Of a stretch of 64,000 nt of DNA, positions 28,186 to 31,598 are shown one piece after another; the stretch's first letter is position 1; every line of letters begins with the position of its first letter. Where the stretch lies: assembly GCF_056746865.1 (NCBI RefSeq), contig NZ_CM163382.1; one strand, given 5' to 3'. The notes beneath the pieces were generated by a model. It did no database searches. It was not told the DNA's origin and saw nothing but the letters and a program-made list of their open reading frames with translations. The translations under genes and the position numbers were made by a program.

Positions 28186-29445
28186 AGATTACGAAAGCCC
28201 GCTCCCAGCAAGGACTGACGCCAGATAGTTTCTGTCCATGGCTGCTTTTCGCATCTTACGTCTTAACCCTGCCTTGAATACCTTATCATTCGTCAAAATA
28301 TTAATAGCGATGTGCCGTATCCCTGAAAATAATTCTGCGGCGTTTCCTCTTCTTATTTTGCAGTCGTCTTCATTCATTACCACGTCCAGACGCCAGTGCA
28401 GCTTATTCTCCACGTGCCAGCGGTTTCGGATTGCTGTGGCGAACTTCTCTGCGGTTAAATCAGCAGAACTGATATAATATCTGACCGTCATTTCTGGCTC
28501 TTTCTTTTGTTCTGCTATTATTGACCGAAAGGAGACTGCCACGCATAATTTCTTCAGACCTTTCCATTCAAACGTGAAATCAATAAGTTCATCAGGGACA
28601 TCGCAAACAATGTGAAGACGGATTTCTTCTCTGCCGTGACTCTTTTCACTAATTGCGTAACTGTCATGCTCTGGATTATTTAATTCTTTCAGTGGGAATT
28701 TTTCCTCAAAGGCTTTATTAAGCCGCCCCTGATTTCCTTTTACAGCGAATAAATAATCACCGCCCTGTTTTTGTATCTTCTCTGCAATATCTTTCTGGCA
28801 ACCCATCGCATCAGTTGTGATGATTTTTCCTTTAATATCCAGCATGTTAAGAAGTTCAGGGATAGCTGTAATCTCATTTGATTTCTCATCCGTCCTGATC
28901 TGTCCGATGACCAGACTGTGCATTGTTGAGAACGCACTAATGACATGAATCGCTCCCTTGCGGCGACTCTTGTCATAAGAATGCCGGAGTGTTTTTCCAT
29001 CAATTGCGATGACGTCTTTATCATCTGAAGAATGGCAGTCACGCATCCAGTTAATAAAGCACTCGTGAAATTTTGCAGGACTGATACAGGATACAACTCT
29101 GGCAATAGTATCGTGAACAGGAATACCATTATCAAAATCACCATATTGCTTCAAAAAATCGAGATGTGTTTCCCCAAAATCCTCTATATCTTCCCAGCCT
29201 TCTGCACCCGAAATAACGGCACAAATAGTCAACAGTAGAATATCCGATAATTTATGTTCCACTTTCCAGGCTTGTCTGTAATCGGGGATAATAGAAATAT
29301 GTTCCATCAATTTTTTAAGTTCCATTTTGTTCTCCTTAATTATGTAAGGAGTATTTGATCATGTATAAGCAATAAAAAACAGCTTCAGGTAATGAGGAAT
29401 ATCTCAATTTGTAAACATAAAATGCGAATTATTTAGTACAAAAAG
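28186..29445 (-). mobile_element. H-rpt (H-repeat, ISAs1-family) element, copy 1
   Basis: About 1.26-kb block repeated at 30336-31598 with near identity; encodes the H-repeat-associated transposase. Confidence 0.8.
28189..29325 (-). CDS. H-repeat-associated protein / ISAs1-family transposase (378 aa, intact)
   Basis: 378-aa [57 protein letters not shown]... matches E. coli H-rpt proteins (YhhI-like). Confidence 0.85.
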
Positions 29446-29673
29446 TGTACTTCTGATGATCTTTCCCTGGGAGGTGATACTGACCGTCTGCCCGAATTCG
29501 TCATAGAGGAAAAACGTCGCGCCGCCCTCCGGGTCAATTTCACACACCGGAAGCCGGTCTTCACTGAAGCGGATAATGGTGGTATGCCCCAGCGAATCAG
29601 TCATCTCCAGCTCATGGCAGAAATCATTCCATACAAAGTGGTAGTCGTAGTACCCGCCGTCGCCCAACAGCAA
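29446..29673 (-). pseudogene. Rhs (YD-repeat) core fragment, truncated by H-rpt copy 1
   Basis: Translation ...DSLGHTTIIRFSEDRLPVCEIDPEGGATFFLYDEFGQTVSITSQGKIIRS has the YD-repeat pattern (DPxGG...YxYD...G); the frame runs into the H-rpt boundary. Confidence 0.5.
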
Positions 29674-29690
29674 TCAATCATCGAATCAAA

Positions 29691-30152
29691 TTAACTTGAC
29701 AAGGTTTTTATTTTTTCGTGTTCGAAAAATAAATGTAGCATAGCGTCATTAATATTACCGCCTATAATACAAAAATAGTTATCAAAACCACCATAAAGAG
29801 CACCATCATCTGAAATAAAATATGTCATATGCTCAGAAAAACCAACACCAACAGGACATAAACGCTTATTGACCAATGGTTCATAGACTTCAGTTATCCA
29901 TTTAGAGTCTATCCAACCAGCAGCTTTTATTGGATCAAAATCGGATTTATCATACTCATTAGGATCTGAATAAGATTCATGCCGTACTATCAACCCTCCA
30001 AACTCTGATAAAAAATCACAAATAATTTCATTAACAAAATATTTCTTAATGGATAAACACTTTATATATTTATCTATGTTTTCTTTTCTGCCATAGTGCC
30101 ATCCATTTTGCAACAGGACACTCATCACTTGTTTATTCGTTATATGATTCAT
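29691..30152 (-). CDS. SUKH-like (SMI1/KNR4-type) candidate immunity protein (153 aa)
   Basis: Size and motifs (FLSEFGGLIV..., LCPVGVGFSEHMTYFISDDGALYGGF...) resemble SUKH immunity proteins; sits directly after a toxin-tip remnant and before an Rhs core fragment. Confidence 0.5.
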   Translation of the reverse strand: MNHITNKQVMSVLLQNGWHYGRKENIDKYIKCLSIKKYFVNEIICDFLSEFGGLIVRHESYSDPNEYDKSDFDPIKAAGWIDSKWITEVYEPLVNKRLCPVGVGFSEHMTYFISDDGALYGGFDNYFCIIGGNINDAMLHLFFEHEKIKTLSS

Positions 30153-30154
30153 AA

Positions 30155-30335
30155 TTACCCCGTTAATACATTAATTCCTAAATATTTGAAAATTTCCTGA
30201 CAGTTTCTACAGTTCGGAAAAGCACTTCCATCACCAGTATGAACTGTAGCCATTTCCAAATCATGCAACGATGAATTATCTTTGAGAGCTTTATTCACCG
30301 CATCTATTTCAGCACAATTATTAACAGCCCAAGGC
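30155..30335 (-). pseudogene. Remnant of a toxin C-terminal tip, possibly deaminase-like, truncated by H-rpt copy 2
   Basis: Short frame whose 5' end is cut by the H-rpt boundary; contains a C-x-x-C element (FPNCRNCQ) loosely resembling the zinc-binding motif of deaminase toxins; weak. Confidence 0.3.
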
Positions 30336-31598
30336 AAGATTACGAAAGCCCGCACCCCGCAAGGACTGCCGCCAGGTAGTTTCTGTCCATGGCTGCTTTT
30401 CGCATCTTACGTCTTAACCCTGCCTTGAATACCTTATCATTCGTTAAAATATTAATAGCGATGTGCCGTATCCCTGAAAATAATTCTGCGGCGTTTCCTC
30501 TTCTTATTTTGCAGTCGTCTTCATTCATTACCACGTCCAGACGCCAGTGCAGCTTATTCTCCACGTGCCAGTGGTTTCGGATTGCTGTGGCGAACTTCTC
30601 TGCGGTTAAATCAGCAGAACTGATATAATATCTGACCGTCATTTCTGGCTCTTTCTTTTGTTCTGCTATTATTGACCGAAAGGAGACTGCCACGCATAAT
30701 TTCTTCAGACCTTTCCATTCAAACGTGAAATCAATAAGTTCATCAGGGACATCGCAAACAATGTGAAGACGGATTTCTTCTCTGCCGTGACTCTTTTCAC
30801 TCATTGCGTAACTGTTATGCTCTGGATTATTTAATTCTTTCAGTGGGAATTTTTCCTCGAAGGCTTTATTTAGCCGCCCCTGGTTTCTTTTTACAGCGAA
30901 TAAATAATCACCGCCCTGTTTTTGTATCTTCTCTGCAATATCTTTCTGGCAACCCATCGTATCAGTTGTGATGATTTTTCCTTTAATATCCAGCATGTTA
31001 AGAAGTTATGGGATAGCTGTAATCTCATTAGATTTCTCATCCGTCTTGATCTGTCCGATGACCAGACTGTGCATTGTTGAGAACGCACTAATGACATGAA
31101 TCGCTCCCCTGCGGCGACTCTTGTCATAATAGTGCCGGAGCGTTTTTCCATCAATTGCGATGACGTCTTTATCATCTGAAGTATGGCAATCTCGCATCCA
31201 GTTAATAAAGCACTCGTGAAATTTTGCAGGACTGATACAGGATACAACTCTGGCAATGGTATCGTGGACAGGCATACCATTTTCAAAATCACCATATTGC
31301 TTCAAAAAATCGATATGTGTTTCACCAAAATCCTCTATATCTTCCCAACCTTCTGCACCCGAAATAACGGCACAAATAGTCAACAGTAGAATATCCGATA
31401 ATTTATGTTCCACTTTCCAGGCTTGTCTGTAATCGGGGGTAATAGAAATATGTTCCATCAATTTTTTAAGTTCCATTTTTTTCTCCTTAATTATGTAAGG
31501 AGTATTTGATCATGTATAAGCAATAAAAAACAGCTTCAGGTAATGAGGAATATCTCAATTTTTAAACATAAAATGCGAATTATTTAGTACAAAAAAGC
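30336..31598 (-). mobile_element. H-rpt (ISAs1-family) element, copy 2, transposase inactivated
   Basis: Near-identical to copy 1 over about 1.26 kb including shared flanking ends; transposase frame interrupted. Confidence 0.8.
30340..31476 (-). pseudogene. H-rpt transposase pseudogene (premature stop)
   Basis: Copy 1 has ...[16 protein letters not shown]...; copy 2 has a TAA at the E codon (plus-strand aagttatggg versus aagttcaggg), splitting the frame into 156-aa and 218-aa ORFs. Confidence 0.8.

What the first reader, a model, noticed from the sequence alone, without database searches (positions are those of the whole stretch)
28186..31598. Two H-rpt (ISAs1-family) copies bracket an Rhs-type remnant: toxin-tip fragment, SUKH-like immunity gene, Rhs core fragment
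The ~1.26-kb H-rpt copies are direct repeats. Copy 1 encodes an intact 378-aa transposase; copy 2 carries a nonsense mutation. Between them, reading the minus strand, lie a short frame cut at its 5' end by copy 2 (possible toxin C-terminal tip with a C-x-x-C element), a 153-aa SUKH-like candidate immunity protein, and a YD-repeat (Rhs core) fragment that runs into copy 1. This is the order expected at the distal end of an Rhs locus, but no main rhs gene is present. The direct repeats could also mediate deletion of the intervening segment.
Basis: partly seen in the sequence, partly recalled or inferred. Interest (0 to 1): 0.55.

Follow-up and report, generated by a model that had tools for sequence, protein, structure and literature searches.

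The report
Decayed Rhs toxin-immunity remnant between IS copies
This is an ordinary, already understood kind of genomic debris: the worn-down far end of a known E. coli Rhs toxin locus. A broken deaminase-toxin gene, its intact SUKH-3 immunity gene and a scrap of the next Rhs cassette sit between two copies of the H-rpt/ISEc1 insertion sequence, and some natural strains have already recombined those copies and deleted the piece.

Summary

- **IS copies:** The two H-rpt copies are complete 1291-bp ISEc1 (ISAs1-family) elements at 28179-29469 and 30330-31620. They have CAGGG termini and are 96.4% identical. Copy 1 encodes an intact 378-aa transposase. Copy 2 carries a GAA>TAA stop.
- **Content between them (860 bp, minus strand):**
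  - the C-terminal half of a YwqJ-like deaminase Rhs toxin domain (CAE...PxCxxC)
  - an intact SUKH-3 immunity gene
  - a 68-codon YD-repeat fragment, which is the head of the next orphan cassette
- **Relatives:** A Salmonella Rhs orphan array has the same order. Distant intact VgrG/PAAR-Rhs relatives pair the same toxin domain with SUKH-3.
- **Locus:** The site (nfrB-cusS) is the published "Rhs locus 4". E. coli W carries vgrG-rhs-orphans-ISEc1 there. This phylogroup-D-type island has no main rhs gene.
- **Deletion:** The predicted deletion between the direct repeats exists in nature. Three strains carry a single chimeric ISEc1, with two different crossover points.
- **Mobility:** There are no target-site duplications, the segment is single-copy in every genome, and there is no genuine plasmid copy, so nothing suggests it moves as a unit.

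Verdict: a known kind of feature, of low interest.

The parts
28179..29469 (-). H-rpt / ISEc1 (ISAs1 family) copy 1, a complete 1291-bp element with CAGGGAAAGAT terminal inverted repeats
   Evidence: Termini mapped. It is 97.3% identical over all 1291 bp to the ISEc1 at the same locus in E. coli W. No 8-10 bp target-site duplication is present.
28189..29325 (-). Intact 378-aa ISAs1-family transposase gene of copy 1
   Evidence: ORF. NF033564 E 6.5e-123, 409.9 bits. PGAP names it WP_000420757.1, 'ISAs1-like element ISEc1 family transposase'.
29470..29673 (-). YD-repeat (Rhs mid-core) fragment of about 68 codons. It is the head of the next orphan cassette and is cut at its 3' end by copy 1.
   Evidence: TIGR01643 YD_repeat_2x at 17.2 bits, cutoff 15.8. 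It is 84% aa identical to residues 27-99 of the Salmonella 258-aa Rhs-fragment+AHH orphan. That orphan maps to RHS_core model positions 509-663 of 1261. Homology to Salmonella stops exactly at the IS end. GC is 54%, against 31% for the neighbouring immunity gene.
29691..30152 (-). Intact 153-aa SUKH-3 immunity gene. Its start lies 2 nt after the toxin-fragment stop.
   Evidence: Pfam PF14433 SUKH-3 at E 6e-12, covering model positions 3-143 of 146. PGAP names it 'SUKH-3 domain-containing protein' WP_001015686.1. It is 84% identical to the Salmonella homologue. SUKH-3 genes follow distant homologues of the toxin in other genomes.
30155..30329 (-). C-terminal half (58 codons plus stop) of a YwqJ-like deaminase Rhs C-terminal toxin domain. 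It is truncated at its 5' end by copy 2. A chance GTG at 30355 inside the IS gives a 66-aa fusion ORF.
   Evidence: The sequence shows NCAE...PNCRNC. Pfam YwqJ-deaminase gives E 0.01 for the fragment, matching model positions 68-134 of 138. The fuller 120-aa Salmonella version gives YwqJ at E 9.7e-4 and dCMP_cyt_deam_1 at E 2.9e-3. Of 48 aligned homologues, 20 hit YwqJ-deaminase at E<=1e-3. E70 and C103 are invariant and C68 and C106 nearly so. The AF2 model has pLDDT 96.9, and its top PDB matches are all deaminases.
30330..31620 (-). H-rpt / ISEc1-like copy 2, 1291 bp. Its transposase gene is a pseudogene (GAA>TAA at 31006-31008). The last 25 bp of its 5' end are a variant form, and the low-end inverted repeat is degenerate.
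   Evidence: PGAP calls it 'ISAs1 family transposase, internal stop'. The variant 5' end is also found in CFT073.
25787..37750 (-). Context: the variable island that fills Rhs locus 4 between nfrB and cusS. It has no vgrG and no main rhs gene.
   Evidence: Backbone homology with E. coli W ends at 25786 and resumes at 37751.

Best explanation
The segment is the decayed distal end of an Rhs polymorphic-toxin array at the conserved E. coli Rhs locus between nfrB and cusS.

**Origin.** An orphan cassette once encoded an Rhs C-terminal YwqJ-like nucleic-acid deaminase toxin and its cognate SUKH-3 immunity protein, followed by the Rhs-core head of the next orphan cassette. Two ISEc1 (H-rpt, ISAs1-family) copies in the same orientation now form its boundaries:
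- Copy 2 removed the Rhs core and the N-terminal half of the deaminase domain.
- Copy 1 removed everything after 68 codons of the next cassette.

**Present state.** The toxin is dead. It lacks helix 1 and strands 1-2 and has no delivery domain. The only intact genes are the SUKH-3 gene and the copy-1 transposase.

**What the structure does today.**
1. Inferred: it can at most supply orphan immunity against related Rhs deaminases of competitors. Transcription would have to come from upstream through copy 2, which has the same orientation and no terminator-like site in between.
2. Shown: the 1.3-kb direct repeats serve as substrates for homologous recombination, which deletes the 2151-bp unit (one IS plus the remnant) and leaves a single chimeric IS.

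**Inferred step.** The junctions arose by IS-associated rearrangement, either adjacent deletion or H-rpt x H-rpt recombination, rather than by simple insertion.
For: **IS anatomy.** The copies are 1291 bp with CAGGG termini. One transposase is intact and one carries a nonsense mutation.

**Toxin.**
- The CAE/PxCxxC motif and Pfam YwqJ-deaminase hits.
- A full-HMMER search found 321 homologues, in which the domain is always C-terminal.
- Five of eight long homologues have an Rhs_assc_core domain N-terminal to the toxin domain.
- P0005 shows ...DPLGL...WVDPFGL followed by the domain.
- The AF2 model (pLDDT 96.9) matches cytidine, blasticidin, dCMP and tRNA deaminases.

**Immunity.**
- PF14433 at E 6e-12.
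- SUKH-3 follows the toxin in Salmonella, in an orphan Rhs at 64% identity and in a VgrG-linked full PAAR-Rhs at 37% identity.
- Iyer et al. 2011 list RHS/PAAR repeats and SUKH3 immunity for the YwqJ clade (PMC3239186).

**Array order.** The Salmonella locus reads Rhs core (726 aa, ending in Rhs_assc_core), deaminase ORF, SUKH-3, YD+AHH, Imm11. The E. coli segment aligns to it at 82-83% nucleotide identity exactly between the two IS ends.

**Locus.** E. coli W has vgrG-rhs-orphans-ISEc1 with the same island boundaries. The site is Rhs locus 4 (PMC2935791; PMC3032704).

**Deletion.** A synthetic 'deleted' query is matched end-to-end in 4 records representing 3 strains. SNP mapping shows clean copy1/copy2 chimeras. 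The crossover lies at 29330-29410 in CB6837 and at 28295-28420 in M7424.
Against: - The fragment's own Pfam hit is weak (E 0.01), and the Foldseek E-values are only about 1e-2 with TM about 0.5. The deaminase call therefore rests on converging weak lines plus the motif.
- No intact parent gene close to the fragment was found. The two word-index searches returned only fragments, and the closest fuller relative in the full-HMMER search is the 347-aa orphan Rhs P0005 at 64% identity.
- The Salmonella Rhs core and deaminase ORF are in different frames, so even that copy is probably a pseudogene.
- No promoter-like site above chance lies upstream of SUKH-3, so its expression is unproven.
- The low dN/dS values (0.065 for SUKH-3, but also 0.03-0.16 for the dead fragments) say nothing about present-day selection.
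- How the junctions formed cannot be reconstructed.
Confidence: 0.87

Rival explanations
1. The unit H-rpt / SUKH-3 segment / H-rpt is a composite transposon that mobilises an immunity gene and arrived here by transposition.
For: Two same-family IS copies bracket a short cargo, and copy 1 has an intact transposase and both inverted repeats.
Against: No 8-10 bp target-site duplication is present at the outer ends or around either copy. The cargo occurs once per genome, in 148 of 5426 E. coli genomes; in every genome inspected it lies in the nfrB-cusS island. The only 'plasmid' hits are mislabelled chromosomal records of 0.73 and 4.9 Mb. The IS copies are direct, not inverted, and 3.6% diverged. 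The E. coli W paper states that transposition of H-rpt has not been observed (PMC3032704).
Confidence: 0.04
2. The SUKH-3 gene is kept as a working orphan immunity gene. It would be expressed by read-through from copy 2 and protect phylogroup-D E. coli against Rhs-deaminase attack by Salmonella-like or other enterobacterial competitors. The flanking debris is incidental. This is compatible with the main explanation but adds a function.
For: It is the only non-IS ORF in the segment that is still full length, and it is >=99% conserved in 147 genomes. Its start is coupled to the upstream ORF, only 2 nt after that ORF's stop. Both IS copies and the cargo share one orientation, and no terminator-like site lies between the copy-2 transposase promoter region and the gene. 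Cognate toxins exist in Salmonella and other genera.
Against: The carriers are near-clonal, so conservation is uninformative. Three strains lost the gene by IS recombination and one by an IS1-associated deletion, without obvious consequence. No promoter signal exceeds chance. SUKH-3 differs by 16% from the Salmonella protein, so cross-protection is not guaranteed.
Confidence: 0.25
3. The single-IS arrangement (CB6837, M7424) is ancestral, and the two-copy arrangement arose later when donor DNA was inserted into a resident H-rpt.
For: Single ISEc1 copies mark the distal end of this locus in E. coli W.
Against: The single copies are exact copy1-left / copy2-right chimeras with two different switch points. 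Independent crossovers between pre-existing copies 1 and 2 predict this; a single ancestral element does not. The tally is 147 genomes with two copies against 3 strains with one. One single-copy form carries copy 2's nonsense mutation, and the other encodes copy 1's exact protein.
Confidence: 0.04

Closest known systems
E. coli Rhs locus 4 (nfrB-cusS), e.g. rhsW3 of E. coli W and EcolC_3079 of strain Crooks (Jackson et al. 2009, PMC2935791; Archer et al. 2011, PMC3032704)
   Same: The chromosomal site and island boundaries are the same (window 25786 / 37751). The orientation is the same, with the array read from cusS towards nfrB. Orphan Rhs C-terminal tips with immunity genes are present, and an ISEc1/H-rpt sits at the nfrB-proximal end.
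   Different: Here there is no vgrG, no DcrB-related (DUF1795-like) gene and no main rhs gene. Apart from ISEc1, none of W's array content is shared. There are two IS copies instead of one. The cusS-proximal part holds unrelated short PAAR-like and HNH ORFs and beta-propeller genes.
H-rpt elements of the K-12 Rhs elements (RhsB, RhsC, RhsE). This comparison rests on my own knowledge of the 1990s literature from the Hill laboratory and was not re-read here.
   Same: They are 1.3-kb ISAs1-family elements found downstream of Rhs core extensions and their small downstream ORFs. Some copies are defective.
   Different: This is a pair of direct copies bracketing a remnant in a locus with no main rhs gene. 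Natural recombinant deletion derivatives are documented here.
YwqJ-like deaminase toxin / SUKH-3 immunity pairs of polymorphic toxin systems (Iyer, Zhang & Aravind 2011, PMC3239186; Zhang et al. 2011, PMC3113570)
   Same: It has a CxE motif in helix 2 and CxxC at helix 3, a short C-terminus after helix 3, and fusion to RHS/PAAR delivery regions in homologues. A SUKH-3 gene lies immediately downstream.
   Different: Only the C-terminal half of the domain is present in the window. Pfam scores are weak, so the family is a divergent branch. No enzymatic data exist.
Salmonella enterica Rhs orphan arrays: Koskiniemi et al. 2014 (PMC3967940) for the concept, and assembly GCA_037560425.1 contig ABRAVB010000002.1 for the actual homologue
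   Same: The cassette order is the same (deaminase tip, SUKH-3, YD-headed next cassette), at 82-83% nucleotide and 84-86% aa identity.
   Different: Salmonella keeps the full 120-aa toxin domain, an upstream 726-aa Rhs core fragment and the downstream AHH/Imm11 cassette. No H-rpt was seen in the 7-12.3 kb part of the Salmonella locus that I read, and none matched in the locus-wide comparison. Antisense SymE genes are interspersed.

Membership tests
ISAs1 family insertion sequence (ISEc1 / H-rpt) | DDE transposase matching the ISAs1 family model | tested here: met
   NF033564 at E 6.5e-123, 409.9 bits against a cutoff of 70, covering model positions 1-314 of 314. Copy 2 is the same gene with one nonsense codon.
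ISAs1 family insertion sequence (ISEc1 / H-rpt) | Length 1.2-1.5 kb with terminal inverted repeats beginning CAGGG (family description recalled from ISfinder, own knowledge) | tested here: met
   Both copies are 1291 bp. The termini are CAGGGAAAGAT...ATCTTTCCCTG, and copy 2's low end is degenerate at 2 of 11 positions.
ISAs1 family insertion sequence (ISEc1 / H-rpt) | 8-10 bp target-site duplication flanking a simple insertion | tested here: not met
   The flanks are GGACCGCAAT|IS1|GGAGGTGATA and ATTAACAGCC|IS2|ACAGCAAACT, with no duplication. This speaks to the history of these copies (rearranged junctions), not to family membership.
Rhs orphan toxin/immunity cassette | The toxin-encoding piece is homologous to a domain that follows the Rhs core PxxxxDPxGL region in full-length Rhs proteins | tested here: met
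   Homologues P0005, P0009, P0042, P0078 and P0025 have TIGR03696 Rhs_assc_core N-terminal to the domain. In Salmonella the domain ORF starts 68 bp after an Rhs core ORF that ends in Rhs_assc_core. The window fragment itself lacks the motif because it is truncated.
Rhs orphan toxin/immunity cassette | Small immunity gene immediately downstream, in the same orientation | tested here: met
   The SUKH-3 ATG lies 2 nt after the toxin stop. The pairing is conserved in three unrelated genomes.
Rhs orphan toxin/immunity cassette | Location downstream of a main rhs gene, or at a locus that holds one in other strains | tested here: met
   No main rhs gene is present here. The same site in E. coli W holds vgrG-rhs plus orphans, and it is listed as Rhs locus 4.
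YwqJ-like deaminase (PF14431), deaminase fold | Zn-binding [CH]xE in helix 2 and PCxxC at helix 3 | tested here: met
   The window has NCAE at fragment residues 6-9 and PNCRNC. In the 48-sequence alignment E70 and C103 are invariant, and C68 and C106 are at least 90% conserved.
YwqJ-like deaminase (PF14431), deaminase fold | Significant match to the family profile | tested here: inconclusive
   The fragment gives E 0.01 and the Salmonella 120-aa version gives E 9.7e-4. Of 48 homologues, 20 reach E<=1e-3, with a best value of 1e-7. These are family-level matches for a divergent branch.
YwqJ-like deaminase (PF14431), deaminase fold | Deaminase-like three-layer alpha/beta/alpha fold | tested here: met
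   The AF2 model has pLDDT 96.9 and pTM 0.89. Nearly all of the first 34 Foldseek PDB hits are CDA, BSD, dCMP or ADAT deaminases, with probability up to 0.99 and TM 0.45-0.54, though E is only about 1e-2.
YwqJ-like deaminase (PF14431), deaminase fold | Deaminase activity and toxicity | not testable with these tools
   This needs expression and toxicity assays plus a deamination assay. The window copy lacks half the domain and is not expected to be active.
SUKH-3 immunity protein (PF14433) | Full-length match to the SUKH-3 profile | tested here: met
   E 6e-12, 46.4 bits, residues 7-141 against model positions 3-143 of 146.
SUKH-3 immunity protein (PF14433) | Neutralises the adjacent toxin | not testable with these tools
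   Only the conserved gene adjacency supports this.

The most novel reading that the evidence does not exclude
The intact SUKH-3 gene is a working, IS-driven orphan immunity gene. It would give phylogroup-D E. coli (ST69, EAEC 042 lineage) protection against T6SS-delivered Rhs YwqJ-type deaminases from Salmonella-like competitors. The flanking H-rpt pair would then act as a natural on/off (loss) switch through recombination.
Probability: 0.2. Interest if true: 0.4.

Novelty: already known. Interest (0 to 1): 0.17.

Why it matters
The finding matters little beyond annotation.

- It is a clean worked example of how Rhs arrays decay. IS copies truncate the cassettes, immunity genes outlive their toxins, and direct IS repeats then delete the remnant.
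- It assigns a toxin type, a YwqJ-like deaminase, to a fragment that PGAP leaves unannotated in the RefSeq record inspected (NZ_CP030768.1).
- If the orphan SUKH-3 gene were shown to protect against Rhs deaminases, it would add an E. coli case to the orphan-immunity literature. It would also point to a small, uncharacterised deaminase toxin family of about 120 aa, which could interest people searching for new base-editing enzymes.

Tried and rejected
- **Looking for the intact parent toxin.**
  - Two word-index protein searches, with the 59-aa fragment and with the 120-aa Salmonella ORF, returned only four fragment entries.
  - A megablast of the segment against 5426 E. coli genomes found only the same remnant.
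  - Only the full-HMMER representative search found relatives.
- **NCBIfam** has no model for the toxin fragment, for SUKH-3 or for the neighbouring 142-aa and 148-aa ORFs. Pfam also finds nothing for those two ORFs.
- **Rfam** scan of 25-36 kb found nothing.
- **Promoter and terminator scan** found sites at or below chance level.
- **Composite-transposon idea** was rejected. There are no target-site duplications, only one location, and no true plasmid copy.
- **MS20675 partial hit.** I first suspected an H-rpt-mediated deletion. It is actually an IS1-associated deletion that starts inside the toxin fragment.
- **dN/dS** was computed, but it cannot speak to current selection because the dead fragments also score low.
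- **A 5-bp ACAGC match** at both sides of copy 2 was considered as a possible duplication. It is too short, offset by 1 bp, and also part of the neighbouring 112-bp element.
- **Two tool errors** had no consequence.

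
Full report
**1. Where we are.** The window is E. coli chromosome. A 5.8-kb query around the finding is 100% identical to many complete genomes, including strain 042 and ST69 isolates, and about 150 of 5426 genomes carry the whole arrangement. In an identical genome, PGAP annotates nfrA and nfrB on one side and cusS, cusR and cusCFBA on the other. The finding lies in a variable island, window 25787-37750, between nfrB (23291-25528) and cusS (37752-39212). 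The island boundaries were defined by comparison with E. coli W.

**2. The observation.**

The two repeats are real. Mapping the terminal motif CAGGGAAAGAT and its complement gives complete elements at 28179-29469 and 30330-31620, each 1291 bp. They align without gaps, with 46 mismatches (96.4% identity). Ten of these fall in the last 25 bp of the transposase-proximal end, where copy 2 carries a variant sequence.

- Copy 1 encodes a 378-aa protein matching the ISAs1 family transposase model at E 6.5e-123.
- Copy 2 has CCT GAA changed to CCA TAA, with the stop at 31006-31008 on the minus strand. PGAP marks it 'internal stop'.

Neither copy is flanked by a target-site duplication, and neither are the outer ends of the pair.

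**3. What lies between the copies (860 bp, 29470-30329, read on the minus strand).**

*(a) Toxin fragment, 30155-30329.* The translation is ...PWAVNNCAEIDAVNKALKDNSSLHDLEMATVHTGDGSAFPNCRNCQEIFKYLGINVLTG*.
- It carries a CxE...PxCxxC zinc-deaminase signature.
- Pfam gives a weak hit to YwqJ-like deaminase (E 0.01), aligned to the C-terminal half of the model, positions 68-134 of 138.
- Word-index searches found only fragments, plus one 66-aa Salmonella enterica protein at 86% identity.

*(b) Immunity gene, 29691-30152.* This is an intact 153-aa SUKH-3 protein (PF14433, E 6e-12). Its ATG lies 2 nt after the toxin stop.

*(c) YD fragment, 29470-29673.* This is a YD-repeat fragment (TIGR01643, 17.2 bits against a cutoff of 15.8).

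GC content follows the classical Rhs pattern: 54% for the YD piece and 31-35% for the tip and immunity gene.

**4. The Salmonella homologue explains the order.** On the contig carrying the Salmonella 66-aa protein, the array reads:
- a 726-aa Rhs core ORF ending in the Rhs-associated core domain (TIGR03696 E 4.8e-16; YD repeats E 6.6e-39)
- 68 bp later and in another frame, a 120-aa ORF containing the whole toxin domain
- SUKH-3 (84% identical to the E. coli protein)
- a 258-aa ORF made of Rhs mid-core repeats fused to an AHH nuclease
- Imm11

The E. coli segment aligns to this array at 82-83% nucleotide identity. The alignment starts exactly at the copy-2 end and stops exactly at the copy-1 end. 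The sequence beyond either IS copy has no similarity to the Salmonella array.

The E. coli YD fragment is 84% identical to residues 27-99 of the AHH orphan. It is therefore the head of the next cassette, not the core of the deaminase module. Relative to Salmonella, about 190 bp between SUKH-3 and this head are also missing.

**5. Toxin family.**

A full HMMER search with the 120-aa domain found 321 representatives at E<=1e-3. In all of them the domain sits at the extreme C-terminus, in proteins from about 90 to 3250 aa.
- Five of eight long representatives have YD repeats and an Rhs_assc_core domain N-terminal to the toxin domain.
- P0005 shows ...DPLGL...WVDPFGL followed by the domain.
- In a 48-sequence alignment, E70 and C103 are invariant and C68 and C106 are at least 90% conserved.
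- Of the 48 members, 20 hit Pfam YwqJ-deaminase at E<=1e-3 and 36 at E<=0.1.
- AlphaFold2 on this alignment gives pLDDT 96.9. Nearly all of the first 34 Foldseek PDB matches are cytidine, blasticidin-S, dCMP or tRNA-adenosine deaminases, with probability up to 0.99 and TM about 0.5, though E is only about 1e-2.

Two distant relatives were checked in their genomes. An orphan Rhs at 64% identity and a VgrG-linked full-length PAAR-DUF6531-Rhs at 37% identity are each followed by a SUKH-3 gene.

This is the association tabulated for the YwqJ clade by Iyer, Zhang and Aravind: RHS/PAAR repeats, SUKH3 immunity, CxE or HxE, and frequent truncation after helix 3 (PMC3239186). It was anticipated in the SUKH paper (PMC3113570).

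The window copy retains only helix 2 onward. Without the first helix, the first two strands and any delivery region, it should be inactive. This is an inference.

**6. The locus.** The literature lists nfrB-cusS as a conserved E. coli Rhs locus: locus 4 in Table 3 of PMC2935791, and rhsW3 / EcolC_3079 with three downstream tips in Table 6 of PMC3032704.

I confirmed this in E. coli W. Reading from cusS to nfrB, the genes are vgrG, a DcrB-related gene, a 1606-aa RHS protein, Imm26, two N-terminally truncated Rhs orphans with small ORFs, and then an ISEc1 next to nfrB. W shares with the window only the backbone up to 25786, the ISEc1 (97.3% over all 1291 bp of copy 1) and the backbone from 37751.

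The window island has no ORF of 450 aa or more and no rhs or vgrG gene. Another strain, N96, has a minimal island with just three small genes, including an SMI1/KNR4 protein. The site is thus a hotspot whose content turns over.

**7. Do the direct repeats delete the segment? Yes.**

The left flank occurs in 151 genomes, the segment in 147 (plus one partial), and the right flank in 153.

I built the predicted deletion product as a query: 799 bp of left flank, one IS, and 800 bp of right flank. It is matched end-to-end in four records:
- CB6837, deposited twice
- M7424
- M11957

I then scored every site that distinguishes copy 1 from copy 2:
- CB6837 carries copy-1 alleles up to 29329 and copy-2 alleles from 29411. 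It encodes the exact copy-1 transposase.
- M7424 carries copy-1 alleles only up to 28294 and copy-2 alleles from 28421. It includes copy 2's stop codon, and it has an 1891-bp group II intron after the position equivalent to 28382.

Two clean chimeras with different switch points are what independent homologous crossovers between copies 1 and 2 predict. They argue against the single copy being ancestral.

A fourth loss, in MS20675, is a different event. An IS1 sits 147 bp into the toxin fragment, and everything up to the DLP12-type prophage is gone.

**8. Is it mobile or functional?**

- The segment is single-copy in every genome. In every genome inspected it lies in the nfrB-cusS island.
- The two 'plasmid' hits are records of 0.73 and 4.9 Mb, which are mislabelled chromosomes.
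- There is no support for a composite transposon.
- Promoter-like and terminator-like sites are at chance level. One weak -35/-10 pair lies upstream of the copy-2 transposase start, and no terminator-like site lies between it and SUKH-3. Any expression would therefore be by read-through, which is an inference.
- Nei-Gojobori dN/dS against Salmonella is 0.065 for SUKH-3, but also 0.155 and 0.031 for the two dead fragments. These values reflect past constraint, not current constraint.

**9. Verdict.** The refinements are:
- exact IS ends
- the toxin type
- assignment of the YD piece to the next cassette
- identification of the site as Rhs locus 4
- demonstration of recombinational deletion in natural isolates

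Every component belongs to well-described families, and the overall phenomenon is established: orphan Rhs tips, H-rpt at Rhs loci, and immunity genes that outlive their toxins. Interest is low.

Noticed in passing
window 31662-31777: A roughly 112-116 bp element ends in a third ISAs1-type terminus (…CATGCTCTTTCCCTG on the + strand). It lies 41 bp beyond copy 2 and cuts off the neighbouring ORF. The same element occurs, unannotated, in 2539 of 5426 E. coli genomes. In CFT073 it directly abuts a copy-2-type H-rpt end. It may be a nested or duplicated IS left end, or the end of another ISAs1 member.
   Followed up: partly
window 31716-32027 (-): A 103-aa ORF matches the C-terminal 70 residues of a 3-oxoacyl-ACP synthase model (NF004798, E 1.6e-8, far below the cutoff). 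Its 3' end runs into the ISAs1-type terminus at 31777. It is a gene fragment of unknown origin inside the toxin island.
   Followed up: no
window 32768-~34098: An IS3-family insertion (two overlapping ORFs, 33631-34041 and 32768-33673, minus strand) splits the 336-aa beta-propeller gene, which is intact in other strains. Among the top hits, only strain SCU-105 matches across it, as two pieces.
   Followed up: partly
window 34498-37383 (-): The cusS-proximal half of the island holds, reading from cusS towards nfrB, a 99-aa 'HNH/endonuclease VII fold toxin-2' ORF (37084-37383), two paralogous 346-aa WD40/BNR-like genes (36018-37058, 34866-35906) and a 104-aa PAAR-like ORF (34498-34812). It looks like a second, non-Rhs set of short toxin/PAAR ORFs with candidate beta-propeller immunity genes and no vgrG. 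I did not analyse it.
   Followed up: no
window 25787-28178: This AT-rich stretch (33% GC) lies between the backbone and copy 1. It holds 142-aa and 148-aa ORFs (26466-26894, 26922-27368) with no Pfam or NCBIfam match and two truncated ORFs (27699-27941, 27975-28211). Strain N96 has an intact 122-aa version of one of them next to an SMI1/KNR4 gene. These are possibly further orphan immunity genes.
   Followed up: partly
L009 (E. coli M7424) 2505-4380, equivalent to window position 28382: An 1891-bp group II intron (ltrA) is inserted in the chimeric single H-rpt of M7424 and M11957. It lies inside the interval where the copy1/copy2 crossover maps.
   Followed up: partly
L003 (E. coli MS20675) 6148-6900: An IS1 lies 147 bp into the deaminase fragment, with loss of SUKH-3, copy 1, nfrAB, ybcH, envY, ompT and appY. 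The island is joined directly to a DLP12-type prophage region.
   Followed up: partly
L002 (Salmonella GCA_037560425.1) 6943-7446 and 12240-12542; L010 3591-3917 and 5419-5682: SymE-type toxin genes lie antisense between Rhs orphan cassettes in both the Salmonella array and the array carrying P0005. This association recurs but I did not examine it.
   Followed up: no
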